Source: an uncultured Polyangiaceae bacterium (lineage in GTDB: Bacteria > Myxococcota_A > Polyangia > Polyangiales > Polyangiaceae). Taken from it: a DNA stretch of 62,992 nucleotides. A program made the position numbers and the translations under genes. Position 1 is the stretch's first letter, and each line of letters starts with the position of its first letter. The notes beneath the pieces are model-generated. The model did no database searches. It was not told where the DNA came from and saw only the letters and a list, made by a program, of their open reading frames with translations. Shown here one piece after another: positions 24,027 through 41,592 of this stretch. The DNA lies in the NCBI GenBank assembly GCA_964442485.1, contig CAYUAW010000005.1:14903-77894 (forward strand), written 5' to 3'.

Positions 24027-24632
24027 TCAGAAGATGCGTTCCTCGACGTAGATCTGGTCGCCAGCCTGGAGCAGGATGTCCGGCGAGCGCCCTTCCATGA
24101 TGGAATCGATGTTGAAGACCACCGTCTTCAACTTTCCGCCCTTCAGCTTCCGCGTCAGATTGACGTGGTCCTTCTTGCCGATGGAAGAGACACCACCCGC
24201 CATCGAGAGGGCCCTCACGAGCGTGAGACCGGGGCTGTAGGGGAAACTACCGATGTGGCCGACCTGACCGAGGATGAGGATGTTCCGGCTCGTGTACGAA
24301 CGAACGCGAACGAGCACGCTGGGATCGATCAGGATCTTCGCCTCGACCATCTTGTCGCGGATGAGATCCGAGATCTGTTGAGGGTCCAGGCCTTCCACCT
24401 TCACGCGGTGGATATAGGGGAGGTTTACATAGCCGTCCGGGCCGATCTGGTACTCGGTCGGCAGATTCTCGCCGATGATCTGGACCGTGAATACGTCTCC
24501 GGCCCCGACCGCCGCACTCTCCACCGGAGGGGGCAAGTGCACCCGGGAATTGTCGATGCGCGGTCCGCAAGCGCTCGCCGAGATCGCAAGGACGAGCAGA
24601 GGTGAGAGGAAGGCTCGAGAGAACCGCTGCAC
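24027..24632 (-). CDS. short outer-membrane polysaccharide export (OPX, Wza-like) lipoprotein
   Basis: Lipobox LVLAISASAC. Poly_export-type region GAGDVFTVQIIGENLPTEYQIGPDGYVNLPYIHRVKVEGL. SLBB-like region ILILGQVGHIGSFPYSPGLTLVRALSMAGG...LLQAGDQIYVEE. Only 201 aa, with no C-terminal amphipathic helix. Confidence 0.85.
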   Translation of the reverse strand: MQRFSRAFLSPLLVLAISASACGPRIDNSRVHLPPPVESAAVGAGDVFTVQIIGENLPTEYQIGPDGYVNLPYIHRVKVEGLDPQQISDLIRDKMVEAKILIDPSVLVRVRSYTSRNILILGQVGHIGSFPYSPGLTLVRALSMAGGVSSIGKKDHVNLTRKLKGGKLKTVVFNIDSIMEGRSPDILLQAGDQIYVEERIF

Positions 24633-24635
24633 GGA

Positions 24636-26051
24636 CTACAGGAACCAGCGCACACCCAGGTAGGCCTGGTAGCGGTTGAAATAGAGGTCGTCGCCGGTTG
24701 CCACCGGTCCTGGTGTCAGCTGATAAACCCGGTGCTCGAGCTCGCCGTCGTACCGGAACGTGGCGTTGATCCCGACGCTCGGGCTGATGCGGTACTCGAC
24801 GAACGCGGTGGCGTCGATGCGGTTCTCCTGCTCGCCGTTAGCTTGCGGGGTACCGTCACCGAAGACGGTCGGCGGGCGGGTGATATGGCTCAGCCCACCA
24901 GCGAGAGAGACAACGAAGCGCTCCGCGAAGAAGTACGCCGTGTTCAGGTAGCCGCGGTCGCGCTGGTAATACGAGCCGAGATAGCTGGTCGTGGTGTTGC
25001 GCGTGTAGCCGAGCGCGACCGACGAGAGCCCCGCGGGCTTCACGCCGCCCCCCGGAGTCTGCGACTGAGGATTCGGATACCAGGTGATCTGGGCCTGCCC
25101 GATGACGCTGTCGAAGTTCTGCGAGGTCCCGACGCCCGGGGTGTAGAACGTGCTCGCCCAGCCAATCATGCCGAGCACACCGAAGTAGTTCGACACGAGG
25201 CCGTTGAGCCCGATCGAGCTGTCCATCGACTCGCCGCCACCCAGGCTCCCCGGAGGGCGCGACGCCGTGTAGTCGACCCAGCTGATATTGCCGCGATAGA
25301 GGATTGCCGTACGCGGCAGGAACTTCCACGAGCCGGCGAGCTGCAGTGTGTGATGCACGTTGTCGAATGACGTGAACGCACGATTCTCGAACAGTGTGGC
25401 GTTCGCCTGGTAGCCCACGCGCCAGCTGAAGAGGCCGCCACCGGGACGCCACGTCACGCCAGCACCCCCGCGGATGTTGTCGCGCTTGAAGGCGTTCGAC
25501 GTATCGGGATCGTTCGACGCCTCGATCATGCGGTTGTAGTCGACGCCGATGTCGCCACCCCAGGTGCGTCCGGGAAAGATGTTCGCACCGACGCCCGCCC
25601 CAATGCCGACGTCGTCCTGATTCGACACCTGGCTCGAGTGGCTGCTATCCGCCGCGAAGAGCGCGCTATAGCTCGCCGCCGCATGCGCGCTGAGCGTCAA
25701 CGGCGGCAGGCCGCCGCCGCCTTCCTGAGCGGCGCGTGCCCCGCGCGAGACCAGGGAGAAGGACGGCGTGATCCGCAGCTTGTACGCGTCGATGACGGGC
25801 TCGGAGACGGTGACGTTGTTGGCCTGGCTCGGCGCCAGCGCCGTCTGTCGTCCGTTGTCTCCTGAGGCCTGAAAATAGTTCGAGTCGTACCCGCCCTCGA
25901 CCGCGATGCCGGGATGGAGCTCGAAGTTACCCGTCTTGATGCCCCTTCCCTCCGTCAGGCGTGGGTCGGAGAGGAAGGCCTGCGCGTATGTGGTGGGGGC
26001 GTGGCTGGCGTAGGCGAGTGCCACGGCCGCAATGAGGAAGCGAGGCTTCAT
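24636..26051 (-). CDS. outer-membrane beta-barrel protein adjacent to the OPX gene
   Basis: Signal peptide MKPRFLIAAVALAYASHAPTTYAQA. G/Y/N/S/T-rich sequence with alternating pattern throughout. C-terminal YLGVRWFL. 3-nt gap to the OPX gene. Confidence 0.7.
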   Translation of the reverse strand: MKPRFLIAAVALAYASHAPTTYAQAFLSDPRLTEGRGIKTGNFELHPGIAVEGGYDSNYFQASGDNGRQTALAPSQANNVTVSEPVIDAYKLRITPSFSLVSRGARAAQEGGGGLPPLTLSAHAAASYSALFAADSSHSSQVSNQDDVGIGAGVGANIFPGRTWGGDIGVDYNRMIEASNDPDTSNAFKRDNIRGGAGVTWRPGGGLFSWRVGYQANATLFENRAFTSFDNVHHTLQLAGSWKFLPRTAILYRGNISWVDYTASRPPGSLGGGESMDSSIGLNGLVSNYFGVLGMIGWASTFYTPGVGTSQNFDSVIGQAQITWYPNPQSQTPGGGVKPAGLSSVALGYTRNTTTSYLGSYYQRDRGYLNTAYFFAERFVVSLAGGLSHITRPPTVFGDGTPQANGEQENRIDATAFVEYRISPSVGINATFRYDGELEHRVYQLTPGPVATGDDLYFNRYQAYLGVRWFL

Positions 26052-26102
26052 CGTGAGCTAGTCCTTCCAGTGCCTGTAAGCTCTAAGGAGTGCCGTCCGC
26101 GC

Positions 26103-26702
26103 TCAGAGCACGGGGCTGGCGAGCACTGGAGGCTCACTGATGATTTCGGGATCGTCGCCGAGTTGATCCGTGTTGTTGTCCGGGATGTTCGGATCGACGG
26201 TGAGTGACACTTGCGATTCGCCGATGAACCCGGCTTCCTCACCGATGCACTGGTTCGCTTCCTTGACGAGCTGATCGACGCGGTCCTTCAGGACCTGCAG
26301 GATCATGAACTCGTGCCGGGCTCGGTCCTTGTCGTGACCGGTGACCGCAGCCTGAAGAGTGCTCGCCCGATCCTTGCCGGAGCGCGTCGCGACGTCGATC
26401 TGATTCAGCTTGTCGTTCAGGCAGAGCGTCTTCACCACGTCGCGGGCGGCACGCGCTTGCTCGAGGGCGGCGCGCACCGTCGCGATGCTTGCGTCCATGC
26501 GCGCGACGTACCCCTTCGCAAGGGCGAGCTGCTGCTCGGGAGGCAAATCCACTTCACGAGGTGCTTCGATCGCCGCAGCGGGGGCGCCGAAGATGCTGGC
26601 CTTCGGACTGAGAACACCCCCCGTACGCGCTGCGGCAACGCTGAAGACGCCTAGCGTCATGGCGCCGGCGACGAGCAGCCCAGTCATCTTGATCAAGCGC
26701 AT
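26103..26702 (-). CDS. secreted helical protein (199 aa), cluster-associated
   Basis: Signal peptide MTGLLVAGAMTLGVFSVAAA. Predicted helical core (ATVRAALEQARAARDVVKTLCLNDKLNQ...) with two Cys. Acidic C-terminal tail. Confidence 0.6.
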   Translation of the reverse strand: MRLIKMTGLLVAGAMTLGVFSVAAARTGGVLSPKASIFGAPAAAIEAPREVDLPPEQQLALAKGYVARMDASIATVRAALEQARAARDVVKTLCLNDKLNQIDVATRSGKDRASTLQAAVTGHDKDRARHEFMILQVLKDRVDQLVKEANQCIGEEAGFIGESQVSLTVDPNIPDNNTDQLGDDPEIISEPPVLASPVL

Positions 26703-26952
26703 CGGAAGAAGCCTCCCTCGGCAAAGTCGCGACGAAGTCGGCCCGAGTATAGGAGAGCCCGATCTTTCGTGTCAACGCGGCCAGCTCGACGAAAAGCCGT
26801 TTGGTTTCTCAGCCATACGTCGGGCGCAGGGCGGGCGCGCATTGACGTTCCGATGCACCGCGGCGCCCCGAAATTCACAGACCCGACATCCCGGGTAGCC
26901 GGGTCTCCGGAATGTGCGACCCTGTCGGACCTACGCCGCACCGCTCCGATGG

Positions 26953-28341
26953 CTATTGCTTCACGAAGGTGACGGGCACCTGGATGACCGCCAGGCCACC
27001 CTGGGGAGGGTCGAACTGAGCGGCCTGGGCGCGTGCCTTCACGCAACTGACCACGGAATCAGGCAAATTGCCGCTTGGCGCCGCGGACACACCTTGGACT
27101 TCGCCACCAGGGCCGACGCGGATCGAAAGCGCAATCCGCCCCTCGACGTCCGGGTTTTGTGCGAGGGCGCGGTTGTAACAGTTACGGAATCCGGCGCGCA
27201 TGCCCGCGACGACGCGGGCTGCGTTGCTCACCTGACCACCGCTCACGTTTGCGGCGCCAGTGGAAGCATTGCCCTTCGGGCCTTTTACCTCCTGGACGGC
27301 GCCTGTCCCATTCCCACCGCCTGGGCCAGTGGAACCGATGGTTCCAAGACCACCACCGGCAGATCCGGGACGAATTGCCCCACCGCCACCACCGAGACTC
27401 AACCCGCCGACGCCGACACCGGCGCTGCTCGCCGCAGCCTTGTCGAGAGCGCCGGTCGGCACCTCGCCCGTTTTCAGGACACCTTCCGTCGCCGGGCCCG
27501 CCCCGGAGAGAGCACCGAGGGTCGCCATCTCCATCTGCTCGAGCTGATTGCTGAGAGCGGCAGCCTGAGCATTGCTCATCGCGCCCGCCTTGCCCGGAGC
27601 GCCGCCGGCCTTCGCCGCCTTGGGCGCCTCTGCCGCCTTCGATTCGCTCGGCGCCTCGTCAGTCTTGTCCGTCGGCTCCTCCACCGGAGGCGGCGGAGGG
27701 AGACTCTTCACCGAGTCGAGCAAGCTGCTGATGTTGACGTCGTAGTCGACGACGGGGTCGAGCCACTCCGAGTAGATCGAGCCGATCGCGGAGAAGTGCA
27801 GGAGAAATGAGAACGCGGCGATCATCGTCGTCGCCCAGTCGATCGACGTGGCGCCGCGGGTGACCGACACGGGGAGCTGCGGCTTCGGCTGGATGGGCGG
27901 CGGCGCGACGAACTGGAACAGGAACGTCGTGTCGTCGAGGACGACCTTGCCGCGCGAGTCCTCCGTCAGCCGAATCTGGTACGCGCCCTGCTGCGTACGG
28001 CGCGCCTGGCCCTTCAGCACCGCGAGATCGGAGATACCCGTCGGCAACGCGACGCGCCCGGTCATTCCTTCGAGAAAATTCAAGCAGTAGTCGTTGCCGA
28101 CCAGCTCGAAGAGCCGGAAGCTCGTCGGCAGGTTTCCCGCCGTGATCACGAACATGTTCTTCTCGTTCGGACCGACGGTGACGTGCGTGCGCTGCTTGAT
28201 GATGCGCTCTTCGATGACGCGGCCCGACTGAACGAGCCCAATTCGGAGCACCTTCGGGCCGGTAGCTGCGACCGCCCGCATGACGGCGGTCATCTGACCG
28301 GGGCGACCACCCGGTGCAGCCGAAGGAGTTTGCTGTGTCAT
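26953..28341 (-). CDS. GltG/PglI-like TonB-type protein with AgmX/PglI C-terminal domain
   Basis: Cytoplasmic N-domain (VLRIGLVQSGRVIEERIIKQRTHVTVGPNEKN). One TM span (WATTMIAAFSFLLHFSAIGSIY). Pro/Ala/Lys- and Gly-rich linker. C-terminal FRNCYNRALAQNP...VVSCVKARAQAAQFDPP...VPVTFVKQ with the two conserved Cys of the AgmX/PglI tail, as I recall that family. Confidence 0.75.
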   Translation of the reverse strand: MTQQTPSAAPGGRPGQMTAVMRAVAATGPKVLRIGLVQSGRVIEERIIKQRTHVTVGPNEKNMFVITAGNLPTSFRLFELVGNDYCLNFLEGMTGRVALPTGISDLAVLKGQARRTQQGAYQIRLTEDSRGKVVLDDTTFLFQFVAPPPIQPKPQLPVSVTRGATSIDWATTMIAAFSFLLHFSAIGSIYSEWLDPVVDYDVNISSLLDSVKSLPPPPPVEEPTDKTDEAPSESKAAEAPKAAKAGGAPGKAGAMSNAQAAALSNQLEQMEMATLGALSGAGPATEGVLKTGEVPTGALDKAAASSAGVGVGGLSLGGGGGAIRPGSAGGGLGTIGSTGPGGGNGTGAVQEVKGPKGNASTGAANVSGGQVSNAARVVAGMRAGFRNCYNRALAQNPDVEGRIALSIRVGPGGEVQGVSAAPSGNLPDSVVSCVKARAQAAQFDPPQGGLAVIQVPVTFVKQ

Positions 28342-28527
28342 CGACGAACCTCCACAAGAACCGAACGAAGGCGGGGATCCTGATCACCCGGACGGCGCTC
28401 GAGCACCCACAGGCTGCCGGTCAGGTTAACCCAGGAAAGTCCTGCCGGTCCACGCACAAGCCACGGAATTAACAAAAGAGTCCGCCAGGACGCGAACTAG
28501 CGGCCCGGCCGATGCCACGCCGCGCAG

Positions 28528-29166
28528 CTAGGACCCGCGCCGCCGGCGCCTCCTTTGGTTGCCTCTCCCCGAGCCAGAGTTCTGGCCCGTCTCGTCACCG
28601 TGGACAGCGCTGGGGACGGTAGCCCCCTGGCGCGGCGCCACGCCCGCGCCGAGTCGATTGGCAGCGGCCAGAGCGATCCGGTCCCAGTCCGCCCGGAGCG
28701 CGGTCGCGCGAGCCGCTGCCGTCCGGCCCAGCTCGAAACAGGCCGCCGCCGCCGCAAGCCCGACGACCGCTGCCGACAGCGCGCTCGTGAGCCCCCGCAG
28801 ATCCTGAACGAGCTCGACGATCGCGCCGAGCGCCGCGGAGGACAGCGCGATCCGGACGGATGCGCCGGGGACGCCGCGGTGCTCGGAGAGACGACGGTCG
28901 AGTTCACCGAGGCGTTCATCGAGGGCGACCGCGCCGGCATTCACCGAGAGCGCGTCCCTCGTCGTCATGGCGTCGAGCATCGCAGGTGCGGCGTCCGCGA
29001 ACGCGACCAGGATCGCAGCACGGGCGTCCTCGTCGCTGCCCGCACGGAGCTTCTTCTCGAGGAACGCGACGTCCGGCACGACCAGCGCGCGCTGCCGTAG
29101 CGACGCCTTCAGCGTGAACGCGAGCGCGAGGGCTCCCCCGGCGCCGGCGAGCGCAACGCCCAGCAC
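28528..29166 (-). CDS. hypothetical membrane protein (212 aa) with Arg-rich tail
   Basis: GC3-rich frame. Hydrophobic spans at the N-terminus (LGVALAGAGGALALAF) and mid-protein (LSAAVVGLAAAAACF). C-terminus GRGNQRRRRRRGS. Starts 3 nt after the preceding gene. Confidence 0.55.
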   Translation of the reverse strand: MLGVALAGAGGALALAFTLKASLRQRALVVPDVAFLEKKLRAGSDEDARAAILVAFADAAPAMLDAMTTRDALSVNAGAVALDERLGELDRRLSEHRGVPGASVRIALSSAALGAIVELVQDLRGLTSALSAAVVGLAAAAACFELGRTAAARATALRADWDRIALAAANRLGAGVAPRQGATVPSAVHGDETGQNSGSGRGNQRRRRRRGS

Positions 29167-29169
29167 CGT

Positions 29170-29412
29170 TCAGAACGGATCGCGCGAGATCGCTTTTTCG
29201 ATGCGCTCGAGGAACGGCTGGCGCAGCTCTGCGAGCGTCAGCTTCGGCTGGATGCGACTGACGTCGACGGCGGCAATGGGCTTCTGCACGCGGCCCACGA
29301 TGGTGACCTCGCTGATGGTGACGACGCGACCCTTCGCGCCGTCCGCGAGAGCCGCACCCGAAGCGAGCACGAAAGCGACGCCGACCATGAACGTTCTGAT
29401 GCGTTGAGTCAT
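29170..29412 (-). CDS. small secreted protein (80 aa), GltF/NfsF-like by size and position
   Basis: Signal peptide FMVGVAFVLASGAALA, about 55 mature residues. Sits between the GltE-like and GltG-like genes. No sequence motif recognised. Confidence 0.5.
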   Translation of the reverse strand: MTQRIRTFMVGVAFVLASGAALADGAKGRVVTISEVTIVGRVQKPIAAVDVSRIQPKLTLAELRQPFLERIEKAISRDPF

Positions 29413-29421
29413 GTCACCCTC

Positions 29422-30996: not shown

Positions 30997-33900
30997 TGCG
31001 GCAACACCGGTAGCGGCGAGGTAGTGCCGTTGGACGGCGGCGCCGTGTCGAGGCCGGGACGGATCCTGAGGAACATCCCCGGCGTGTAGTTCAGGTCCTT
31101 CACCCGCGAGGCATACTGCGGAAGCTTCGCCTCGCCGATGACGTCGGTGAAGAACGCCAGCCGCTGGATTGCGTGCACGATCGCGGCGTTCGACACGTTG
31201 TACCGCCGCGCGAGCATGACGGCGTTGCCGTACCGATCGATCATGATCTGATCCGCGCTGTTGAGCTCCTGCTCACGCTTGTCGCGCCAGGCGTTCGTCA
31301 CGTTCGTGCGCGCGGCGTCTGCCTTCTCCTGCAGATCCGGGTTGTCGCTGTTCTCGGCCATGTGCAGGAGCTGCTCGGTCTTCTTGTCGAACATGATGAG
31401 CGCGGGCGGCCGCGTCTCGTACAGACCGGTGCGGAGCGAGTCGTACAGCGAACCCTGCCGCGCGATCGCCGCGGCAGCCCACTCCGGCGCCGCGTAGTCG
31501 TCGACGACGCGCTGGAGCTTGTCGTACCACTTCTTCGCTTCGACGGCGTCGCCCTGGTAGTTCTTGATGACCTCGACCGCGGTGCCCTTGTAGTGGTGGT
31601 GTCCCGTCTCGTAGTCGAACGTGTTGTGCACGTCCTGGTCGATGAGCGTGAACGCCCCCTCCGCGGCCATGGCGGCTTCCGGCGAGCCGACGGCGCTATT
31701 CGAGCCGTCCTTCGCCTTGGGCGCGACCTGCTTGTACCTGTCGAAGGCGTGCATGGTGTTCTGCCACGCGTCGTTGACCGTCCCGGACTTCGCAGCGCGC
31801 TCGGACTTCGCCACGTTGTAGGCCGCCTGTACGACGTACTGCGCAGCGGCGTCGTTGTTCTTGTTCTGGTCGTAGTACGCCTTCATCGACGCCTCGGCGC
31901 GCTTGCGGGCGGCCTCGTTCGAGCCGGTGTCCGGCGAGAACTCGTCCCACTTCTTCAGATCCGCGCTCGCGACGATGAAGTCCGCCTCGGCCTTGTCCTT
32001 CGGTGACGCGCCAAGGGCGAGGAAGCGCTCTCTCGCCCGCGTCATACCGCCCGTGTCGCCCAGGCTCGCGTACAGGCTCAGCGACTGGCGCGCGGCCGCG
32101 CGCTGCTGATCCTGCGGGAAGTGAGTGTTGCGGCTGATGATGTCGAACGTCTCGGCCGCCTTCGGATAGTCGAAGAACAAGACCCGCGCGTTCGCCAGCG
32201 CGTCGTACGCCATCTTCAGGAACTTCACCCGATCCTCGTACTTCTTCGGGTCGGCGGTGACCGGGGGCTGGGCCTTCGGATCGCCGTGCTGCAAGGCGTT
32301 GAGCTTCTGCTCGTTGCCGTACTGCGAGATGAAGAGCTCGTACATGGCGATCGCCTTGTCGTACTCACCGACCTGCTTGTACGCGTAGGCGCCGTTCATG
32401 GCTGCCTCGGGCGCCTCGTCGCGACCGGGAGCCGCGTCGAGCGCAACCTTGTATGCGGCCGCCGCCTGCCGCCACTTCTTGGCGCGCTCGGGGCCATCCG
32501 GCATCGCCTCGGCCTGCTTGTAGAGCGTCTGCGCGTCGAGGTAAGCGACGCCCTGGATGACGGGCTTTCGAAGCGCCTCTTCCGCGGCCTTCGAGTCCTC
32601 GTTGTAGGCGCAGCTCTTCGCCTCGGCGAGCTTCCTGCTCTGCGCGGCGTTGCCCTCGAAGTTGCTCATGCTGATGAGCTTCTCCCAGGCCTTGTAGCCC
32701 CACTCGTTCTGACCACAGTACTGGTCATAGAGCGGCTGGTATCGCGCGCGCGCCTCCGGGAAGTGGCCGTAGACGAAGTAGTAGTCTGCAGCCTGGAAGG
32801 CGTAGAGGAGCCCGTTTTTCTCCGGATCTCGGTCGACGGGAATGCGCGCGTTGTAGTCGTCGCGTGCCTTGATGGCGTCGATGACCTCGGGAGGCACCGG
32901 ATCGGTGACGACCTTGCGGTTCTCGCCGTCGCCCGCGAACCGCACCTCGTCGCGCTTCTCGATGCCGGTGGCACCACCCGACGCCTGGAACTGACGATAC
33001 TTGTCCTCCAGCACCTTCTCCGAGATCGAGACGAGGTAGTACGCCGCAGGCTGCAGGTACTTGTCGTCCTCGTTCGAGTCGCGGACGTCCGTCGCCGCGT
33101 CCTTCGCGCGCTGGATCTCCTGCGGCGTCGGTGTTCGCCCGACGGCGATCTGCAGCACCACCACCCAGTAGCGTGCGTCAGCGAGCCAGAAGCGGCTCTC
33201 GTACGAGTCGAGCGCCGTCGGATCCTGCTCGATGTACGCGGCCCAGCCCGTCTCTGCCAGCCGGTACTCCGCTACGGCCTTCTCGATGAGCGCACGCTGC
33301 TCACCTTCGTCGGTGAGCTCCTTCGCGCGCTGGAAGTAGTTGCGCGCGAAGTTCGTGTGATCGGCCGCCGCGCGCTGGAGCCCGTTCTTCACGAGCTCCT
33401 CCGCGGCGGCGAGCGCCTCGGGATCGTCGCGATTCGCGTCCGTCCAGGGCGTCGTGCCGACGTAGGCGGCAAGCTTGGTGCGCGCCTCGAGTGCCTTCGA
33501 TGCGTACTCCGCCTTCACCGACGAACCGTCGGGTGCGAGACGCGCGAGCTGGTCGTACAGCTCCGCGATCTTATTTTGCATCTTCGGTGCGTCCCGGTCC
33601 ATCGGGAACTTCTTCAGCGTCAGCTCCAGGACCGCGATGGCGTTCCTGTTCTGCGTGATCTCGATGAACTCCTGGGCGAGCGCCTTGTAGATCTCGACCG
33701 TCCACTTCTTGTCCTGCGGGATGAGCGCAGGATCCTGGACGCGGTCGATCGCGATGCGCATCTTGTCCTCGGCGATGACGGGGTTCGTCTCCACGTCGAG
33801 GACGTCGTTACGCGGGATATTCGGCAGATCGGCGGGCGGACCGTCGAAGTCCACGTAGGTGAGCGAGCCCGCGACGTACGTGTACGCCTCCTGCCGGAAG

Positions 33901-35363
33901 TCGGCACCGGGATCGCCAGTCTTCGCCTCCTGCTCGTCGGCGTAGTGCAGGAGGTTCACGAACCACTGCACCGCGGTCTTGTAACGCTGCTGCTTGAAGT
34001 ACGTCCACGCGCGCTTGTACATGGCGACGCCGTACAGCGGTGGCTTCTCGTACTTCATCGAGTGCTCGTAGGAGCTCATCGCGCGGTTGAGCTCGTAGGG
34101 ACCGCCGGCGACGTCGATCTGGTCGAAGTGGTAGTTGCCGATCTGCCACCAGATCTCGGCCACGTACTTCGGCTCCTCGCCCGGCTCGACGTGCTGCGCG
34201 ACGGGCTCGCAGGTATCGGGGTACGGATCGTCGTAGCGCAGCTCGTCGTTGTCGCGCGCGAGGGTACCGCCCTTCCCCGCCTTGGCCTTGGCCTTCGCAG
34301 CGGGAGCGGGAGCGGGAGGCGGCGTTGCGGCTTTGCCCTTGCGCCTCCCGGCTCCCACCTGGTCGAGCGGAACCGGGTGGCGGTTGTACCAGTCGTTCCA
34401 GAACTTTTCGTCGTGGTTCTGGGGGAGCGGCTGGATCGCGATCTTGTCCGAGTCGGTGGGGTCGTCGGTGACGCTGTACTGATTGTTGCAGACCAGCGCG
34501 CGCCACGCTTGCTGTCCCTCGGGCAGCCGGGACGAATCCGTGTAGGCGTGGCCGAGGAAGTAGTATACGCCGGAGATTTCCTCGTACTTCGGATATTCGC
34601 GGATGATCCGGCGGTAGAGATCGATCGCGGGCTTCAAGGTCTTCGCGAGATCGCCCTCGAAGTCAGCGCGCGCGCGTTCCTCGTAGAGCGCGGCCAGGCG
34701 GTACATCGCGTCCGGCGTTGCCTCGACGTTGGCGTTGGCGCCGCTGTACGTGTCGACGAATTTCTCCAGCCGCCGGATGGCTTCGTCACGCGCGTCGGCG
34801 AGACCCTTCTGTTCGACGTCGATCTCGTGGTCGAGAGCGCTGAGCACGCGCCGACGCTTCTCGTCGTAGTGATGACGGACGATCATGGTCAGCGTGTTGC
34901 GGTAGTCCTTCGCGGCCGCCTGGTACTCGCCGAGCTCCTGCTGCAGCGCAGTGAGCGACGAGAGCTGTTTCGGCGTCGGTGGCGGAAGCGACGGCGCCGT
35001 ACGACGCGGCCCCAGCTTGCCGCTCGAAGCCGCGGGCGGCGCGAGCGTCGGCGCCGCGCCGGCGCCGGGAGCGCCAGCTGACGTGGACCCCTGCGAACCG
35101 TCGGGTGACGTCGGAGGCGCCGTCGTCGAGACGGGCGGCAAGGCCGAGCCCGTCGGCGTCGTCGGCGACGTCGGATTGCTGCTCGACGCCCCGGCCGGCA
35201 CGCTCTTTCCCGTAGCGCCGGAGGAAGCGGGAGCCGGCGATTTCGCAGGCGCGGCCGCAGCGGAGGGCTTCGCGGAGGCGGCGGGCAGCGTCTGCGCCAC
35301 CGAACCGCTCGCCATCACGAGCACCAGAAGAGAAGCGAGTGGGCTCCTGTACCGAGAGATCAC
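30993..35363 (-). CDS. giant periplasmic TPR protein, GltD/AgmU-like
   Basis: ORF 30993..35483, with the start moved to the GTG at 35363 (GTGA overlap with the upstream stop). This yields the signal peptide ISRYRSPLASLLVLVMASGSVAQ. A Pro/Ala/Ser/Thr-rich linker is followed by about 1250 aa of TPR-like helical repeats. Confidence 0.65.
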   Translation of the reverse strand: MISRYRSPLASLLVLVMASGSVAQTLPAASAKPSAAAAPAKSPAPASSGATGKSVPAGASSSNPTSPTTPTGSALPPVSTTAPPTSPDGSQGSTSAGAPGAGAAPTLAPPAASSGKLGPRRTAPSLPPPTPKQLSSLTALQQELGEYQAAAKDYRNTLTMIVRHHYDEKRRRVLSALDHEIDVEQKGLADARDEAIRRLEKFVDTYSGANANVEATPDAMYRLAALYEERARADFEGDLAKTLKPAIDLYRRIIREYPKYEEISGVYYFLGHAYTDSSRLPEGQQAWRALVCNNQYSVTDDPTDSDKIAIQPLPQNHDEKFWNDWYNRHPVPLDQVGAGRRKGKAATPPPAPAPAAKAKAKAGKGGTLARDNDELRYDDPYPDTCEPVAQHVEPGEEPKYVAEIWWQIGNYHFDQIDVAGGPYELNRAMSSYEHSMKYEKPPLYGVAMYKRAWTYFKQQRYKTAVQWFVNLLHYADEQEAKTGDPGADFRQEAYTYVAGSLTYVDFDGPPADLPNIPRNDVLDVETNPVIAEDKMRIAIDRVQDPALIPQDKKWTVEIYKALAQEFIEITQNRNAIAVLELTLKKFPMDRDAPKMQNKIAELYDQLARLAPDGSSVKAEYASKALEARTKLAAYVGTTPWTDANRDDPEALAAAEELVKNGLQRAAADHTNFARNYFQRAKELTDEGEQRALIEKAVAEYRLAETGWAAYIEQDPTALDSYESRFWLADARYWVVVLQIAVGRTPTPQEIQRAKDAATDVRDSNEDDKYLQPAAYYLVSISEKVLEDKYRQFQASGGATGIEKRDEVRFAGDGENRKVVTDPVPPEVIDAIKARDDYNARIPVDRDPEKNGLLYAFQAADYYFVYGHFPEARARYQPLYDQYCGQNEWGYKAWEKLISMSNFEGNAAQSRKLAEAKSCAYNEDSKAAEEALRKPVIQGVAYLDAQTLYKQAEAMPDGPERAKKWRQAAAAYKVALDAAPGRDEAPEAAMNGAYAYKQVGEYDKAIAMYELFISQYGNEQKLNALQHGDPKAQPPVTADPKKYEDRVKFLKMAYDALANARVLFFDYPKAAETFDIISRNTHFPQDQQRAAARQSLSLYASLGDTGGMTRARERFLALGASPKDKAEADFIVASADLKKWDEFSPDTGSNEAARKRAEASMKAYYDQNKNNDAAAQYVVQAAYNVAKSERAAKSGTVNDAWQNTMHAFDRYKQVAPKAKDGSNSAVGSPEAAMAAEGAFTLIDQDVHNTFDYETGHHHYKGTAVEVIKNYQGDAVEAKKWYDKLQRVVDDYAAPEWAAAAIARQGSLYDSLRTGLYETRPPALIMFDKKTEQLLHMAENSDNPDLQEKADAARTNVTNAWRDKREQELNSADQIMIDRYGNAVMLARRYNVSNAAIVHAIQRLAFFTDVIGEAKLPQYASRVKDLNYTPGMFLRIRPGLDTAPPSNGTTSPLPVLPQ

Positions 35364-37798
35364 TGCTGACCTCCCGCGTCGTCGAGCACTTCGCGCAGCT
35401 CGTCGTTCAAGTTCTGTTCCTCGCGAGCGCGTTCTCTTTGCAGATCGCGCACCCTGAAACGTTGCTCTTCGCGTGTCTCCCACGCCTGCTGGACGATTCC
35501 CACGTCGGCGCGGAGCACGATGCTCTTCAACCGATCGCGCACCAGCCCGAAGTTCTTCATGGCGACTTCCCCCACCAGGAGCCGGGCGTTCTGATCGAGC
35601 GTGTCGAGACGATCGGCGTACACGCGGATGTTTTCCGCCTCCGCGTCGACCTGCCGCTGGAGCTCGTCGGCGCCTGCCTTCACCTTCGCCTCCAGGTCAC
35701 GACGCATGCCGTCCACCCGCGCCTCGACGGCGTCCGCCTTCGAGAGGAGGCCGTCGATGGTGCGCGCATAGGCCACCGTGTCGCCGTCGGCCTGGCCCGA
35801 CGCAGCGAGCTGAACCTCTCGCGCGAGCAGCTGACGGAATCGGGTGCGGACCTCGTCGTCGTCGGCGTAGCGCTGATCGCCGAAGCCGATCTGCACGCGG
35901 CCCATCTCGACGGCCTCGCGGTACGCCGCGATCCTGTCCTTGTACGTCTTGAGGTCGCGCTCGTTCGCCTCGAGCTCCGCAGAGAGACGCTGGCGCGACG
36001 CCGCGTCCCTCGAGATGCCTTGCTTGTCTGCGTCGGCGAGCACGCGTCGAAGCGCATTCACCATCGCCGCCAGCTTGTCGGCCTCTATGGTGAGCCCCTG
36101 GAGCTTCTGCGAGACGGTGTTCCACTGGCGCTCGCCCGACGACTCGCGACGGAGGAAATCACCCTCCGTCACGGGCAGCCAGCCGAGACGCTGCATGAGC
36201 GCGCGGCGCTCCGCTCGGATCGTTCCCGTCTCTCCGGGCTGCGGAGCGTCGCTCACGCTGTCGAGCCCCATCGCCAGCGTGCGACGAGCGAGCGCCACCT
36301 TGTTCAGGAGACCGAGCGACTTCTCGAGACCCGCCTTCAGATCAGGGAAGGCTCGTGCGCGGGTCGGGGACGAGAGCACCGCGGTGAGCTTGCGTACGAG
36401 CTCGCGTGATTTCTTGATGAGGTCACGGGAACGAGTCACGTCGTCGATCACGCCGAACACGCGATCGTCCTCGGCGGCCTCGCGGACCCAGGTGAGGACG
36501 ACGGAGGGGATCCCCGAGCGGTCGTCGTCGAGCTCTTCCTCGACCAGGCGATCGTAGTAGACGGTTGGATCGGTGGTATTCGTCAGGAAGGTGTCGACCT
36601 TCTGCCGCATCGGATCGAACTCGCTTCGAACGCTCTCGTAGAGCTCGAGCGCGCGCTCGTACATGCCGGAGCGCAGCATGAGATCGGCGCGCAGGAGCGA
36701 GCCGTCCGCGAGGTGCAAGCTGCCGGGTGACGTTACGCTGAGCACCTCGAGGGCCCGCTGGGCTCGCTGGTTGTCGCCGAGCCGGACGTAGACCCACGCG
36801 AGCTCGTACAGCATGTCGCCGAACTCGGGCGAGCCCCGATCGACATGGCTGTAGGCTTCAGCGGCGTCGAGGTAGTTCTCGGTCTCGTAGAAGAGGCGGC
36901 CGATGGCCATCCAGGCGAGATCGATGACGTGGCGGTGCGCGTCGGTGTCGGCCGGGAGCTGCGTCACCTTGTGAAACTGCTCGATCGCGGCGGCGAACCG
37001 CTCAGCGGCCTGAGGCCCTCCCGCAGGCGCAGGGGGCGTCGCGCTCGCGCCCGCCGCGGGTGCGGCACCTGCGGGCGGCGTCGCGACGACGGGTGGCGCC
37101 TTCGCGAGCGCCTCCTTCATGGCGACCACGCCCTTCAGGTAGCCCGCCTGATGAATCCACTCGCTGGTGGTCGCGACGGTGTCGAGCGCGCCGCGGGCGC
37201 TCGGGAAATCCCCGCGCGCGATGTACGCCTTGCCCCGGGCGTACTGCAGCGACCCGCTCGCATCCGACGGCGGCAGCTGTGCGAGCTTCGTGAAAACGTA
37301 GTCGAGCACGTCGGAGTGCTGCGTGCGGATCGAGACGTCGACCAGCCGGCTCAGCGAGCGACCGACGTAACTGTCGTACGGAGGCTGCATGCCCTTGTCG
37401 ACGAGCTCCTTGTAGTGACGCGCGGCTGCGAGGTGCTGGTTGTCCTTGAAGTACGTCTCGCCGATGAGGAACAGCGCGTCGGCGTACGAAGGCTCGGGAA
37501 CCTGCCCGCGCCGGTAGAGCTCGAGCACCTGCGACAGCACGTAGATCGCGCGGTCGTAGTCGCCGGTCCGCATGAGCAGCTCACCGGCGACGATGCGCTT
37601 CTCGGGCGTCTCTACGACGCGCTTCGCTTTGTCGATCGCTTCCTGTATCGACCCCGTGTCCGCGTCGGCGCCCCGAATCGCGGTCTCTGCCTTGCCCCGC
37701 GCCTCGGCCGCATCGACGGCGAAGGCGTTCGCCGTCGAGAGGAGGCCGAGGAGCGCTGCCGCGAGCGCCCCGCCACGGGCGCCATTCCTCTTGGTCAT
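35360..37798 (-). CDS. secreted TPR plus long coiled-coil protein (812 aa)
   Basis: Signal peptide GGALAAALLGLLSTANAFA. N-terminal TPR units (GELLMRTGDYDRAIYVLSQVLELY...). The C-terminal ~350 aa are heptad-rich (DLKTYKDRIAAYREAVE...ELQRQVDAEAENIRVYADRLDTL). ATGA overlap with the upstream gene. Confidence 0.7.
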   Translation of the reverse strand: MTKRNGARGGALAAALLGLLSTANAFAVDAAEARGKAETAIRGADADTGSIQEAIDKAKRVVETPEKRIVAGELLMRTGDYDRAIYVLSQVLELYRRGQVPEPSYADALFLIGETYFKDNQHLAAARHYKELVDKGMQPPYDSYVGRSLSRLVDVSIRTQHSDVLDYVFTKLAQLPPSDASGSLQYARGKAYIARGDFPSARGALDTVATTSEWIHQAGYLKGVVAMKEALAKAPPVVATPPAGAAPAAGASATPPAPAGGPQAAERFAAAIEQFHKVTQLPADTDAHRHVIDLAWMAIGRLFYETENYLDAAEAYSHVDRGSPEFGDMLYELAWVYVRLGDNQRAQRALEVLSVTSPGSLHLADGSLLRADLMLRSGMYERALELYESVRSEFDPMRQKVDTFLTNTTDPTVYYDRLVEEELDDDRSGIPSVVLTWVREAAEDDRVFGVIDDVTRSRDLIKKSRELVRKLTAVLSSPTRARAFPDLKAGLEKSLGLLNKVALARRTLAMGLDSVSDAPQPGETGTIRAERRALMQRLGWLPVTEGDFLRRESSGERQWNTVSQKLQGLTIEADKLAAMVNALRRVLADADKQGISRDAASRQRLSAELEANERDLKTYKDRIAAYREAVEMGRVQIGFGDQRYADDDEVRTRFRQLLAREVQLAASGQADGDTVAYARTIDGLLSKADAVEARVDGMRRDLEAKVKAGADELQRQVDAEAENIRVYADRLDTLDQNARLLVGEVAMKNFGLVRDRLKSIVLRADVGIVQQAWETREEQRFRVRDLQRERAREEQNLNDELREVLDDAGGQQ

Positions 37799-38751
37799 TT
37801 TGTTCCTGTGCCGATGGAGAGGCTACCGGATGCACCTGCTGCAGGGGCCGCGGGGGCCGCCGCCGGCTCCGCTGGTCTCGAAGAACCGGTATCGCCCTCG
37901 CCGAGCCCGCTGCGCACCTTCTCGACGTAACGCACCGCGGGACGCTGCTCGAGCGGCGTGGTGACGCCACCCTTCTCCCAGGCGATCGCCTCGAGATCGA
38001 TCGACTTGCCCTCGGTCACGGTGAAGGCGTGGCTCGACTTGACCTCGAACTTGTACCCGCGAAGGTACGAGAAGACGCCGTAGCCGTGACCACGGAGCTG
38101 GACGAGCACCTGCAGGGTGTGATCGCCGGGCGCGATCGAGCCGCTGAAGATCGGGATCTCCGTCTGCGACGCGAGCGCGCCAGTGTCGTCGGCCTTGTTG
38201 TACTGAACCGCGCCGTCGAGCACGAACAGCGCGCGCGTCAGACGGAACGCGCTGCTCATATCGTTCTGGAACTTGATCTCGGCGCGCGCGCCGCCCACAC
38301 CGGCCGAAAGGATCGTGTCGCTGAGCAAGCTCAGGCGTGTGTGGCTGCGCCGGATCTGCTCCTTCAGCTCGTCGACGCGCGACTCGAGATCGCGAAGGCG
38401 AACTGCGTATGTGGAACCGTCCACAGGTGCAGCGGCTGCACCTGCAGCAGGTGCGGGCGCGGCCGTCGTGGTTGGAGACGGTGTAGTGGCCGGTGGTGCG
38501 GTTGCCGGAGCAGCGCCCGCTGCTCCGGTTGCGCTCTGCGTCGTAGCACTCGCGGCGGCGCCAGTTGCTGGCGCTTTCGCGGAGTTGGCGGCTGCTGACG
38601 CACCAGCGCCCGGCAGTGCGACCGAACCACCGACAGAAGCCGAAGCAGCAGGTGGCTTCGGTGCGCTGCTCGCGGGAGCTCCTTGAGCAGACGCCACGGA
38701 TACCCACAAAAGCGATGCGAGCATCCCTCGCGCGGCGTTTCGAAGTCTCAT
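37795..38751 (-). CDS. secreted protein: Ala/Pro/Thr-rich linker, coiled coil and beta-rich domain (318 aa)
   Basis: ORF 37795..39231 trimmed to the ATG at 38751 (MRLRNAARGMLASLLWVSVASAQG), preceded by GGAGAGGG 7 nt upstream. The remaining upstream codons are Arg-rich junk. Confidence 0.65.
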   Translation of the reverse strand: MRLRNAARGMLASLLWVSVASAQGAPASSAPKPPAASASVGGSVALPGAGASAAANSAKAPATGAAASATTQSATGAAGAAPATAPPATTPSPTTTAAPAPAAGAAAAPVDGSTYAVRLRDLESRVDELKEQIRRSHTRLSLLSDTILSAGVGGARAEIKFQNDMSSAFRLTRALFVLDGAVQYNKADDTGALASQTEIPIFSGSIAPGDHTLQVLVQLRGHGYGVFSYLRGYKFEVKSSHAFTVTEGKSIDLEAIAWEKGGVTTPLEQRPAVRYVEKVRSGLGEGDTGSSRPAEPAAAPAAPAAGASGSLSIGTGTK

Positions 38752-41088: not shown

Positions 41089-41592
41089 TCAGTTCGGCGC
41101 GTCGCGGACGTACGCAATGGTGCGGATCGCTTCAACGAGCCGCTCGCGATCGGGTGGCATGAGCTCCACGAATCGGATGCCCATGCCCGGGTTGCGGTTC
41201 TCCGAGAGAAGCCGCACCGGGTTGATCCACTGCACGACGCCGCCCAGCACGAAAGCCTCGTCGAGGTTCGGAGGCGCGAAGCGCAACGTGACCCGCGTGC
41301 CGATGGACAGCGGCTCCCTCGTCGCCACGAAGATCCCGAGCTCGGAGATGTTTCGAATCGATGCGTAGAGAAACGTGTCTTCCGTCTCGCAGTCGACGGA
41401 CCAGGCTACCGAGAAGCGGTCGGCGCTCCGACGGTTCTCCGGATCTTCCGCCGCATCGAGCTCCTGCGCGTCGTCGGATAGACGGTCCTTCACCCAAGGG
41501 GGCTTAGCCCTTCGACGAGCGCGTGTCACGGTCCGAATTTCCGGCGCGCCGAATCCCGGGGGCCCGCCCCTCGCTTTGCCGCAGTGAGACAT
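41089..41592 (-). CDS. PilZ domain protein
   Basis: RRSADR (RxxxR) followed by NISELG (D/NxSxxG) and GMGIRFVEL. The true start is probably internal (the PilZ core is about 110 aa). Confidence 0.7.
   Translation of the reverse strand: MSHCGKARGGPPGFGAPEIRTVTRARRRAKPPWVKDRLSDDAQELDAAEDPENRRSADRFSVAWSVDCETEDTFLYASIRNISELGIFVATREPLSIGTRVTLRFAPPNLDEAFVLGGVVQWINPVRLLSENRNPGMGIRFVELMPPDRERLVEAIRTIAYVRDAPN

What the first reader, a model, noticed from the sequence alone, without database searches (positions are those of the whole stretch)
24027..38751. Eleven-gene Glt/Nfs-like trans-envelope operon fused to a polysaccharide OPX plus beta-barrel outlet
Seen: 11 minus-strand CDS run from 38751 down to 24027 with no opposite-strand gene between them. 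Three junctions are 4-nt start/stop overlaps: ATGA at 37795-37798, GTGA at 35360-35363 and ATGA at 30993-30996. Most other gaps are 3-50 nt. Only 26703-26952 and 28342-28527 are long enough for internal promoters.

Gene order:
- 318-aa secreted coiled-coil protein
- 812-aa TPR/coiled-coil protein
- ~1456-aa AgmU/GltD-like TPR giant
- AglT/GltE-like TPR lipoprotein
- 80-aa GltF/NfsF-sized secreted protein
- 212-aa membrane protein
- PglI/GltG-like TonB-type protein with the two-Cys AgmX/PglI tail
- 199-aa helical secreted protein
- 471-aa beta-barrel
- 201-aa OPX

Established: in Myxococcus xanthus, GltD/E/F/G-type proteins form the core of the gliding (Glt) and spore-coat (Nfs) machines. These are powered by the TolQR-like AglRQS motor. 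Nfs acts on a polysaccharide exported by a separately encoded OPX pathway (Exo).

Inference: here a Glt/Nfs-type core and an OPX/barrel outlet share one apparent transcription unit. No TolQ/TolR/ExbB-like motor gene lies anywhere in the window. At least four members (318, 812, 212 and 199 aa) do not fit the gltA-K/nfsA-H parts list as I remember it. This could be an uncharacterised Glt-family machine dedicated to export or deposition of a surface polymer.
Basis: partly seen in the sequence, partly recalled or inferred. Interest (0 to 1): 0.72.

Follow-up and report, generated by a model that had tools for sequence, protein, structure and literature searches.

The report
Glt-paralog "G4" cluster plus polysaccharide outlet
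This is a Polyangiaceae copy of a known but still uncharacterised myxobacterial relative of the gliding and spore-coat machines (the "G4" cluster), and it sits, as it does in Myxococcus xanthus, next to a three-gene outer-membrane polysaccharide exit, which makes a link between the two testable.

Summary
The gene block is real, but it holds ten co-directional genes, not eleven.

It is not a new kind of machine. It is collinear, gene for gene, with M. xanthus MXAN_1923-1915:
- p2-p5 and p7 match the GltC/D/E/F/G-like "G4" paralog cluster, whose function has been unknown since Luciano 2011.
- p8 matches MXAN_1917.
- p9 matches the WzpB beta-barrel and p10 the Class-3 OPX WzaB, the biosurfactant polysaccharide (BPS) outlet.
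- p1 and p6 have no counterpart in the M. xanthus stretch I could read, which does not reach MXAN_1924.

The protein sizes also match Sorangium sce5945-5940.

The pairing of G4 with the outlet holds in Myxococcus, Stigmatella and about 60 informative Polyangiales loci. The flanking genes differ between the two lineages.

In Polyangiales the outlet module p8-p10 has its own conserved sigma-70-type promoter (45 of 68 loci against 0.9% of control windows). "One transcription unit" is therefore not supported. Two close relatives have lost p8-p10 and kept G4.

No TolQR motor and no Wzx/Wzy/PCP gene lies in the window.

I found no paper that mentions the G4-outlet adjacency. A published polar insertion in MXAN_1922 left motility intact, which argues against G4 being required for export.

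Verdict: a new member of a known kind, carrying a useful, testable hypothesis.

The parts
37795..38751 (-). p1: 318-aa secreted protein with a signal peptide, an Ala/Pro-rich linker, a short coiled coil and a beta-rich C-terminal domain. It overlaps the p2 start by 4 nt. It is not in the gltA-K list and no family was assigned.
   Evidence: No Pfam or NCBIfam family. A 66%-identical homolog with a conserved signal-peptide start holds the same position in L129. No counterpart is visible in the part of the M. xanthus locus I could read.
35360..37798 (-). p2: 812-aa secreted TPR protein, the GltC-like member of the G4 type.
   Evidence: TPR Pfam hits. NF033756 GltC scores 51.8 bits, E 5.7e-14, far below the equivalog cutoff of 450. 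BLASTP to the readable C-terminal part of MXAN_1923 gives E 2e-10. Its size matches MXAN_1923 (809 aa) and sce5945 (802 aa), which Luciano lists as GltC homologs. Signal peptide.
30993..35363 (-). p3: 1456-aa secreted giant, the GltD-like member of the G4 type.
   Evidence: BLASTP to MXAN_1922 gives E 8e-30 over 776 aa plus E 3e-11. Its size matches sce5944 (1431 aa), listed as a GltD homolog. More than 120 clusters of 63-92% identical homologs exist, all in Polyangiaceae. It has only weak BamD/YbgF-type TPR hits, and no GltD model hits either p3 or MXAN_1922.
29422..30996 (-). p4: 524-aa TPR lipoprotein, GltE-like.
   Evidence: NF033758 GltE scores 86.3 bits (cutoff 225), and MXAN_1921 itself scores only 110.8. 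BLASTP to MXAN_1921 gives E 7e-26. Lipobox Cys18/Cys27.
29170..29412 (-). p5: 80-aa secreted protein, the GltF-position protein.
   Evidence: Signal peptide. BLASTP to MXAN_1920 gives E 4e-6 in a 9-protein database. MXAN_1920 hits the 88-position CglF model at 32.8 bits against a cutoff of 90. Present in 49 of 60 loci that have room upstream of p7.
28528..29166 (-). p6: 212-aa Ala-rich protein with three hydrophobic segments and an Arg-rich tail. Lineage-specific, fast-evolving and probably in the inner membrane.
   Evidence: Detectable by tblastn in only 3 related loci (L082, L124, L155), although a gene-sized space of 600-800 nt between p5 and p7 is the rule. No M. xanthus counterpart.
28482..28503 (-). 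Terminator-like hairpin followed by a T-run, just after the p6 stop.
   Evidence: Consensus scan only; conservation was not tested.
26953..28341 (-). p7: 462-aa GltG-like bitopic inner-membrane protein. It has an FHA-like cytoplasmic beta-domain, one TM helix, a disordered linker and a TonB-type C-terminal domain with two conserved Cys.
   Evidence: NF033760 GltG scores 89.8 bits (cutoff 650) and aligns to model positions 191-645 only. NF033768 scores 53.8 bits, above its cutoff of 40. BLASTP to MXAN_1919 gives E 3e-39 over the full length. In the AF2 model, residues 30-145 and 355-461 have pLDDT above 90. Foldseek finds FHA domains and TonB CTDs. The family has 439 representatives at E below 1e-30.
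26746..26775 (-). Sigma-70-type promoter (TTGACA, 18 nt, TATACT) in the 250-nt p7-p8 gap. It probably drives p8-p9-p10.
   Evidence: Matches 11 of 12 positions. The same element (TTGACA, 17/18 nt, TATACT or TATAGT) lies about 55-75 nt upstream of the p8 start in 45 of 68 Polyangiales loci, against 0.9% of control windows. The median p7-p8 gap is 207 nt.
26103..26702 (-). p8: 199-aa secreted three-helix-bundle protein with two invariant Cys and a Pro-rich tail. It belongs to the MXAN_1917 family and is the first gene of the outlet module.
   Evidence: BLASTP to MXAN_1917 gives E 3e-17. hhalign gives probability 99.4%, E 1e-21. 1632 homologs, all annotated hypothetical, with no Pfam family. In the AF2 model, helices 55-157 have pLDDT above 95. 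Foldseek finds nothing informative.
24636..26051 (-). p9: 471-aa Wzp-type outer-membrane beta-barrel porin, the WzpB counterpart.
   Evidence: hhalign against the WzpB family gives probability 99.8%, E 2e-29 over 361 columns. BLASTP to WzpB gives E 1e-10. Weak BBP2_2 hit. Signal peptide and a conserved C-terminal LG.RWF[LM].
24027..24632 (-). p10: 201-aa Class-3 OPX lipoprotein, the WzaB counterpart.
   Evidence: Poly_export and one SLBB domain, about 200 aa, no C-terminal OM helix. The best PDB hit is the WzaB crystal structure 9n9a, E 7e-19. BLASTP to WzaB gives E 5e-24. Lipobox Cys22. The clade ends in ER[VIL]F.

Best explanation
The locus consists of two adjacent envelope modules.

Module 1 (p1-p7) is the Polyangiaceae ortholog of the myxobacterial "G4" paralog of the Glt/Nfs machines.
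- p7 is a GltG-like inner-membrane protein. Its TonB-type, disulfide-bearing C-terminal domain reaches into the periplasm.
- p2, p3 and p4 are secreted or lipidated TPR scaffolds (GltC-, GltD- and GltE-like). p5 is a small GltF-position protein.
- p1 and p6 are lineage-specific additions.
- By analogy with Glt and Nfs, this module should be energised through p7 by a TolQR-type proton motor encoded elsewhere.

Module 2 (p8-p10) has its own conserved promoter and is the terminal exit of a Wzx/Wzy-type polysaccharide pathway.
- p10 is a lipidated Class-3 OPX. It docks by its hydrophobic-Phe C-terminus on the periplasmic rim of the p9 Wzp-type barrel, as shown for WzaB and WzpB.
- It receives polymer from a co-polymerase encoded outside the window.
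- p8, a conserved periplasmic three-helix bundle, is an uncharacterised third component.

Shown here: the homologies, the collinearity with MXAN_1923-1915, the conservation of the pairing, and the promoter.

Inferred: the motor dependence, the docking, and the relation between the modules.

My best guess is that G4 acts on or next to the polymer or outlet, as Nfs does for spore-coat polysaccharide, and is not required for export itself.
For: - Collinear one-to-one homology with M. xanthus: p2~1923, p3~1922, p4~1921, p5~1920, p7~1919, p8~1917, p9~WzpB, p10~WzaB. Profile-level confirmation for p9 (99.8%) and p8 (99.4%).
- Luciano 2011 lists MXAN_1919-1923, sce5940-5945, STAU_2684-2688 and Hoch_6494-6498 as Glt homolog clusters. 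The Sorangium sizes (802/1431/449/82/511) are close to the window's (812/1456/524/80/462).
- The same order is present in Stigmatella.
- In Polyangiales, 33 of 34 genome loci with enough sequence downstream of p7 carry p8+p9+p10. In metagenome loci centred on p8, 25 of 25 have p7 upstream and 24 of 24 have p9+p10 downstream.
- The flanks differ between lineages. Myxococcus has inositol-phosphatase, redoxin and Mur ligase. Polyangiaceae have ECF sigma, PilZ, PMT_2, Maf and PMT_2.
- p7 architecture.
- Conserved internal promoter.
- WzaB-WzpB-WzcB mechanism (Mellouk 2026, PMC12819527). The p10 clade keeps a terminal hydrophobic-Phe.
- All ten products carry signal peptides, lipoboxes or TM segments.
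Against: - No motor, PCP, Wzx or Wzy gene is in the window, so neither energisation nor the polymer can be assigned.
- The WzaB Arg106-Arg107 PCP-binding motif is not conserved in p10; it is replaced by T/V/S-D.
- OPX orthology to WzaB, as opposed to WzaX or WzaS, rests on synteny, not phylogeny.
- A polar insertion in MXAN_1922 had no reported gliding or twitching defect (Luciano 2011). wzaB and wzpB mutants have strong swarm defects. G4 is therefore probably dispensable for export.
- The WzcB-WzaB-WzpB contacts were shown pairwise with purified proteins, without any G4 protein.
- Two close relatives (L012, L052) keep G4 but lack p8-p10 next to it.
- No consensus internal promoter is detectable in Myxococcus or Stigmatella.
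Confidence: 0.6

Rival explanations
1. All ten genes form one operon that encodes a single integrated trans-envelope machine. The Glt-like core is an obligatory part of polymer export through the barrel and OPX.
For: - All ten genes are co-directional, with three 4-nt overlaps and short gaps.
- The adjacency is conserved in both directions across Polyangiales and Myxococcia.
- In Stigmatella only 8 nt separate the GltG-like gene from the p8-like gene.
- No consensus internal promoter is found in Myxococcus or Stigmatella.
Against: - A near-consensus promoter is conserved in the p7-p8 gap in 66% of Polyangiales loci against 0.9% of controls, and the median gap is 207 nt.
- A terminator-like hairpin follows p6.
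- The polar MXAN_1922 insertion left motility intact.
- L012 and L052 keep G4 without p8-p10.
- The WzcB, WzaB and WzpB interactions were reconstituted with purified proteins, without G4.
Confidence: 0.15
2. The two modules are neighbours by descent only. G4 does something unrelated to the polymer that leaves through p9 and p10, and the adjacency is a frozen accident.
For: - The outlet has its own promoter.
- The outlet can be lost on its own.
- No phenotype is reported for the G4 disruption.
- According to Islam 2020, wzaB sits inside the BPS biosynthesis cluster in Sandaracinus.
Against: The eight-gene block stays collinear in two classes of Myxococcota while everything around it differs. 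Within Polyangiales the pairing is close to invariant in both directions. Gene order rarely survives that depth without selection.
Confidence: 0.22
3. The locus is an ortholog of the gliding (Glt G1/G2) or spore-coat (Nfs) machine.
For: Best NCBIfam names are GltC, GltE and GltG.
Against: - All scores lie far below the equivalog cutoffs: 51.8 against 450, 86.3 against 225, and 89.8 against 650.
- No GltA, B, H, I, J or K homolog is in the block.
- p7 aligns only to positions 191-645 of the GltG model and lacks its N-terminal part.
- Sizes, order and neighbours match G4.
Confidence: 0.03

Closest known systems
M. xanthus G4 cluster MXAN_1919-1923 (Luciano et al. 2011) with its downstream genes MXAN_1917, wzpB (MXAN_1916) and wzaB (MXAN_1915). 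Also Sorangium cellulosum sce5940-5945 and Stigmatella STAU_2684-2688.
   Same: - The gene order is the same: GltC-, D-, E-, F-, G-like, then the 3-helix protein, the barrel and the Class-3 OPX, all on one strand.
- There is pairwise homology for eight genes.
- No motor gene is adjacent.
- The GltG-like protein is short (about 450 aa).
   Different: - The window has p6 between the GltF- and GltG-like genes, and p1 upstream.
- M. xanthus has a cNMP-binding gene (MXAN_1918) between 1919 and 1917.
- Identities are only 23-32%.
- p3 is about 350 aa longer than MXAN_1922.
- Polyangiales have a conserved sigma-70-type promoter before p8 that is not detectable in Myxococcus or Stigmatella.
The Nfs complex (nfsA-H) working with the Exo/MASC export pathway (WzaS/ExoA, WzpS/ExoB) in spore-coat assembly.
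   Same: A Glt-family envelope complex is functionally paired with a polymer that leaves through a Class-3 OPX and a barrel. It depends on a separately encoded TolQR-type motor (Wartel 2013).
   Different: - By locus tag, nfs and exo are separate loci in M. xanthus, whereas here the Glt-like genes and the outlet are adjacent.
- Nfs has NfsA, B and H barrels and an FHA-bearing NfsG.
- Coupling is demonstrated for Nfs and only hypothesised here.
The Agl-Glt gliding machine (G1 gltD-J, G2 gltK-B-A-C, M1 aglRQS).
   Same: It has homologous GltC/D/E/F/G-type components and the TonB-like two-Cys tail.
   Different: - GltA, B, H, I, J and K are absent.
- Scores are far below the equivalog cutoffs.
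- According to Luciano 2011, G4 disruption does not affect gliding.
The Class-3 OPX translocon WzcB-WzaB-WzpB (Saidi 2022; Schwabe 2022; Mellouk 2026).
   Same: - A short lipidated OPX with Poly_export and one SLBB domain.
- An adjacent Wzp barrel.
- A terminal hydrophobic-Phe tail.
   Different: - The twin-Arg PCP-binding motif is not conserved.
- The PCP and the biosynthesis genes are not in the window.
- A conserved third gene (p8/MXAN_1917) is co-located. The papers I could search do not discuss it.

Membership tests
G4-type Glt paralog cluster (MXAN_1919-1923 / sce5940-5945) | Gene order GltC-, GltD-, GltE-, GltF-, GltG-like on one strand | tested here: met
   p2-p3-p4-p5-(p6)-p7 against 1923-1922-1921-1920-1919, and Stigmatella.
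G4-type Glt paralog cluster (MXAN_1919-1923 / sce5940-5945) | Each protein is the reciprocal best match of its positional counterpart in M. xanthus G4 | tested here: met
   Within the locus set, BLASTP gives E 2e-10, 8e-30, 7e-26, 4e-6 and 3e-39, each to the collinear partner only. There was no genome-wide reciprocal test and no tree.
G4-type Glt paralog cluster (MXAN_1919-1923 / sce5940-5945) | Phylogenetic placement with G4 rather than G1, G3 (Nfs) or G5 | not tested
   The G1, G3 and G5 sequences could not be fetched.
Agl-Glt gliding machine (G1/G2) | Equivalog-level match to the GltC, GltE and GltG models | tested here: not met
   51.8 against 450, 86.3 against 225, and 89.8 against 650 bits.
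Agl-Glt gliding machine (G1/G2) | Presence of GltA, B, H, I, J and K | tested here: not met
   No such hit in the block or elsewhere in the window.
GltG/PglI-type protein | AgmX/PglI C-terminal two-Cys domain of TonB type | tested here: met
   NF033768 scores 53.8 bits, above its cutoff of 40. C388 and C433 are invariant. Foldseek finds TonB CTDs.
GltG/PglI-type protein | N-terminal cytoplasmic FHA domain | tested here: inconclusive
   No Pfam FHA hit, and p7 lacks GltG model positions 1-190. However, AF2 residues 30-145 have an FHA-like fold by Foldseek (probability 1.0, E 1e-3 to 1e-2).
Class-3 OPX (WzaB/WzaX/WzaS type) | Poly_export and a single SLBB, about 200 aa, no C-terminal OM-spanning helix, N-terminal lipobox | tested here: met
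Class-3 OPX (WzaB/WzaX/WzaS type) | C-terminal aromatic tail that binds the Wzp porin (WzaB Phe203-Phe204) | tested here: inconclusive
   p10 ends in ...ERIF, and 29 of 36 clade members end in a hydrophobic residue followed by Phe. Binding was not tested.
WzaB ortholog (BPS pathway) | Arg106-Arg107 PCP-binding motif | tested here: not met
   Replaced by I-D in p10, and by T/V/S-D in most of the clade.
WzaB ortholog (BPS pathway) | Closer to WzaB than to WzaX or WzaS in a tree; a BPS-type biosynthesis cluster in the same genome | not testable with these tools
   The WzaX and WzaS sequences and the rest of the genome are unavailable. The EpsY model scores p10 at 61 bits and WzaB at 88 bits against a cutoff of 320, so neither is an EpsY equivalog.
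Wzp beta-barrel porin | Homology to WzpB and a position next to a Class-3 OPX | tested here: met
   hhalign gives 99.8%, E 2e-29. The gap to p10 is 3 nt.
Wzp beta-barrel porin | 18-stranded barrel | not tested
Glt/Nfs core complex with its motor | A TolQ/TolR-type (AglRQS-like) motor encoded with or near the complex | tested here: not met
   No MotA_ExbB or ExbD hit in any predicted gene of the window. In M. xanthus, too, the motors M1 and M2 lie elsewhere.

The most novel reading that the evidence does not exclude
G4 is the third cargo-specific member of the Glt/Nfs family. It would be a motor-driven envelope complex that captures, positions or processes the polymer leaving the adjacent Wzp/Class-3-OPX outlet (BPS in M. 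xanthus). The conserved three-helix protein p8/MXAN_1917 would be the adaptor between outlet and machine. That would give each of the three paralogs its own polysaccharide: slime for Glt, MASC for Nfs and BPS-type polymer for G4.
Probability: 0.22. Interest if true: 0.75.

Novelty: new member of a known kind. Interest (0 to 1): 0.45.

Why it matters
G4 has been catalogued since 2011 with no assigned function. wzaB was described in 2020 as an "orphan-like" gene about 1 Mbp from the BPS biosynthesis cluster.

This work shows that G4, an unstudied three-helix protein, the barrel and the OPX form a block conserved across two classes of Myxococcota. That turns the open question of what G4 does into specific experiments in a tractable model organism. 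It also flags MXAN_1917/p8 as a candidate third component of a Class-3 OPX outlet.

The finding does not establish a new class of machine.

Tried and rejected
I replaced it with a hand-made degenerate DNA pattern. It could not have reached Myxococcus anyway, because MXAN_1919 lacks the YS[DE]W motif.
The M. xanthus counterpart of p1 therefore stays unknown.
- Foldseek of the p8 model against the PDB returned only generic helical bundles.
- No sigma-70-type promoter is conserved upstream of p7.
- Promoter scans of the M. xanthus and Stigmatella clusters found nothing.
- The 2015 Nature Reviews Microbiology review on capsule and motility evolution is not held, so I cannot exclude that it mentions the adjacency.
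- The G1 or Nfs ortholog idea was rejected on scores, parts list and synteny.

Full report
**Observation**

The ATGA, GTGA and ATGA start/stop overlaps are at 37795-37798, 35360-35363 and 30993-30996. The remaining gaps are 9, 3, 186, 250, 51 and 3 nt. An independent gene caller on an identical metagenome contig predicts the same genes. The one difference is p1, which it starts at an internal GTG. The 318-aa form with a signal peptide is conserved in a 66%-identical homolog. Every product has a signal peptide, a lipobox or hydrophobic segments; for p7 the TM helix comes from the AF2 model. The block is therefore real, and it encodes envelope proteins.

**What the proteins are**

- p10 has Poly_export and one SLBB domain.
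- p4 and p2 are TPR proteins whose best NCBIfam names are GltE and GltC.
- p7 hits GltG and passes the curated cutoff of the AgmX/PglI two-Cys tail domain.
- All hits to the Glt equivalog models are far below cutoff: 86 against 225, 52 against 450 and 90 against 650 bits.
- p3 hits no GltD model at all.

This is what the known M. xanthus paralogs also show. MXAN_1921, MXAN_1919 and MXAN_1922 give 111 against 225 bits, 161 against 650 bits and no GltD hit.

The AF2 model of p7 has four parts:
- a confident beta-domain (residues 30-145);
- a TM helix (169-194);
- a disordered linker;
- an alpha/beta C-terminal domain (355-461).

Foldseek matches the first domain to FHA domains and the last to TonB C-terminal domains.

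p8 is a confident three-helix bundle with two invariant cysteines and a Pro-rich tail. It has no informative structural neighbour.

**Identity of the locus**

Luciano et al. 2011 (PMC3169522) described three further Glt-like clusters in M. xanthus besides the gliding genes: G3 (nfs), and G4 and G5 of unknown function. Their supplementary table lists these clusters:
- G4 as MXAN_1919-1923 (447, 91, 490, 1111 and 809 aa);
- Sorangium cellulosum sce5940 and sce5942-5945 (511, 82, 449, 1431 and 802 aa);
- Stigmatella STAU_2684-2688.

The window's sizes (462, 80, 524, 1456 and 812 aa) match the Sorangium set closely, and p3 has only Polyangiaceae relatives.

I took the WzaB sequence from the PDB alignment and retrieved the M. 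xanthus wzaB neighbourhood. On one strand it reads:
- MXAN_1923 (809 aa)
- MXAN_1922 (1111 aa)
- MXAN_1921 (495 aa)
- MXAN_1920 (91 aa)
- MXAN_1919 (447 aa)
- MXAN_1918 (148 aa, cNMP-binding)
- MXAN_1917 (203 aa)
- WzpB (421 aa)
- WzaB (204 aa)

BLASTP pairs each window protein only with its collinear partner:

| Window protein | M. xanthus partner | E-value |
|---|---|---|
| p2 | MXAN_1923 | 2e-10 |
| p3 | MXAN_1922 | 8e-30 |
| p4 | MXAN_1921 | 7e-26 |
| p5 | MXAN_1920 | 4e-6 |
| p7 | MXAN_1919 | 3e-39 |
| p8 | MXAN_1917 | 3e-17 |
| p9 | WzpB | 1e-10 |
| p10 | WzaB | 5e-24 |

Profile-profile comparison gives 99.8% for p9 against WzpB and 99.4% for p8 against MXAN_1917. p6 has no M. xanthus counterpart, and MXAN_1918 has none in the window. 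The counterpart of p1 could not be examined. The finding is therefore the Polyangiaceae ortholog of G4 plus MXAN_1917, wzpB and wzaB.

**Conservation of the pairing**

Stigmatella has the same order without the cNMP gene.

A degenerate DNA pattern for the p7 TM motif returned 120 genome loci, all Polyangiales: Sorangium, Polyangium, Byssovorax, Labilithrix and MAGs.
- 98 of them show the G4 context.
- Of the 34 with at least 3.6 kb downstream of p7, 33 carry p8+p9+p10 in the same order and on the same strand, and one lacks only p8.

In 80 metagenome loci centred on p8, 25 of 25 with enough upstream sequence have p7, and 24 of 24 with enough downstream sequence have p9+p10.

The flanks differ between lineages.
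- Polyangiaceae have Der, Era, PMT_2, PilZ, anti-sigma and ECF sigma on one side, and a 382-aa gene, Maf and PMT_2 on the other.
- Myxococcus and Stigmatella have inositol-phosphatase, redoxin and Mur ligase downstream.

A block that stays collinear while its surroundings change suggests selection for the adjacency.

Two counter-examples exist. L012 and L052, whose p7 is 85% identical to the window's, go straight from p7 to the 382-aa, Maf and PMT_2 genes. Another 22 loci hold a p7 homolog with no other detectable cluster gene; most are 33-54% identical, and two are too short to judge.

**Transcription**

A consensus scan found a single sigma-70-type site in the 16-kb region: TTGACA, 18 nt, TATACT, inside the p7-p8 gap. 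The same element lies about 55-75 nt upstream of the p8 start in many Polyangiales loci.

| Promoter match | Polyangiales loci | Control windows |
|---|---|---|
| at least 9 of 12 positions | 45 of 68 | 0.9% |
| at least 10 of 12 positions | 62% | 0.3% |

The median p7-p8 gap is 207 nt, against about 60 nt for p8-p9 and overlap for p9-p10. p8-p10 therefore looks like its own unit in this lineage. No such element is conserved before p7, and none is detectable in Myxococcus or Stigmatella.

**Function**

The window holds no TolQR-type motor and no Wzx, Wzy or PCP gene. Both the energy source and the polymer must be encoded elsewhere. M. xanthus is the same: the motors M1 and M2 and the BPS biosynthesis cluster are distant, and wzaB is 1.016 Mbp from that cluster.

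For the outlet, the WzaB-WzpB-WzcB mechanism (PMC12819527) is the model.
- The p10 clade keeps a terminal hydrophobic-Phe like the porin-binding Phe203-Phe204.
- It does not keep the Arg106-Arg107 PCP-binding pair.

For G4 the only published data are negative. Luciano et al. describe a polar insertion in MXAN_1922 that left gliding and twitching intact. wzaB and wzpB mutants have a strong swarm defect. I cannot see the figure, and BPS phenotypes were unknown in 2011, so this is suggestive rather than decisive. It argues that G4 is not needed for export, and that wzpB and wzaB expression does not depend on read-through from MXAN_1922.

I therefore favour two associated but separable modules. 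G4 would act on or near the exported polymer, as Nfs does for MASC (PMC3858216). I give that relation no more than moderate probability.

**Novelty**

The papers I could search do not mention the adjacency of G4 to the BPS outlet. These were the OPX papers of 2022, the 2026 mechanism paper, the 2020 BPS paper, a 2025 review and a 2026 preprint. The locus tags MXAN_1917-1923 appear in main text only in Luciano 2011 (MXAN_1922 alone). A 2015 review was not available.

The locus is a new member of a known kind. The useful product is the documented, deeply conserved linkage, together with the candidate third outlet component p8/MXAN_1917.

Noticed in passing
window 26746-26775 (-), and the p7-p8 gaps of L005-L124: A near-consensus sigma-70 promoter (perfect TTGACA, a 17/18-nt spacer, then TATACT or TATAGT) is conserved upstream of the p8 family across Polyangiales. 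Such a strong match to the E. coli-type consensus is unusual in a genome of about 69% G+C.
   Followed up: yes
L012 and L052 (8-kb genome blocks; p7 85% identical to the window's): These close relatives keep p3, p4, p5 and p7 but lack p8-p10. p7 is followed directly by the 382-aa gene, Maf and PMT_2. This amounts to a natural deletion or relocation of the outlet module.
   Followed up: partly
L013, L027, L039, L040, L043, L056, L065, L070, L086, L108 and others; L127: A second class of p7-like proteins (mostly 33-54% identical, with the same TM motif) stands alone, without any Glt-like, barrel or OPX neighbour. One sits next to an Hsp70-like gene. Several genomes carry both the G4 copy and a solo copy.
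   Followed up: partly
window 28528-29166 (-): p6 occupies a conserved slot between the GltF- and GltG-like genes, but its sequence evolves so fast that tblastn detects it in only three related loci (two genome loci and one metagenome locus). M. xanthus has no gene there.
   Followed up: partly
L126 7503-7949 (M. xanthus MXAN_1918); window 41089-41592 (-): M. xanthus has a cNMP-binding protein inserted between the GltG-like gene and MXAN_1917. Polyangiaceae instead keep a PilZ-domain gene just upstream of the cluster. Both hint at second-messenger control.
   Followed up: no
window 39393-41073 (+), 41609-44206 (-) and 20810-22219 (-): An ECF sigma/anti-sigma pair is transcribed divergently from p1, and two PMT_2 (GT-C) glycosyltransferase genes flank the cluster. 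The whole arrangement is conserved in L129 and in many loci.
   Followed up: partly
M. xanthus genome next to L126 (outside the fetched DNA): Papers on MglA use the locus tag MXAN_1925 (titles). From my own knowledge mglA is MXAN_1925, so G4 lies two genes from mglBA in M. xanthus. No MglA-like gene is in the window; the GTPase at 45316-46632 is Der/EngA.
   Followed up: no
window 12689-18036 (-): Two ketosynthase-like genes, an acyl carrier protein and a MoxR AAA+ ATPase lie in a row. They are not part of the finding.
   Followed up: no
window 50878-59667 (+): A signalling set comprises a Ser/Thr kinase, a zinc-ribbon protein with two FHA domains and a PP2C phosphatase. A TPR protein and a small OMP beta-barrel lie nearby.
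   Followed up: no
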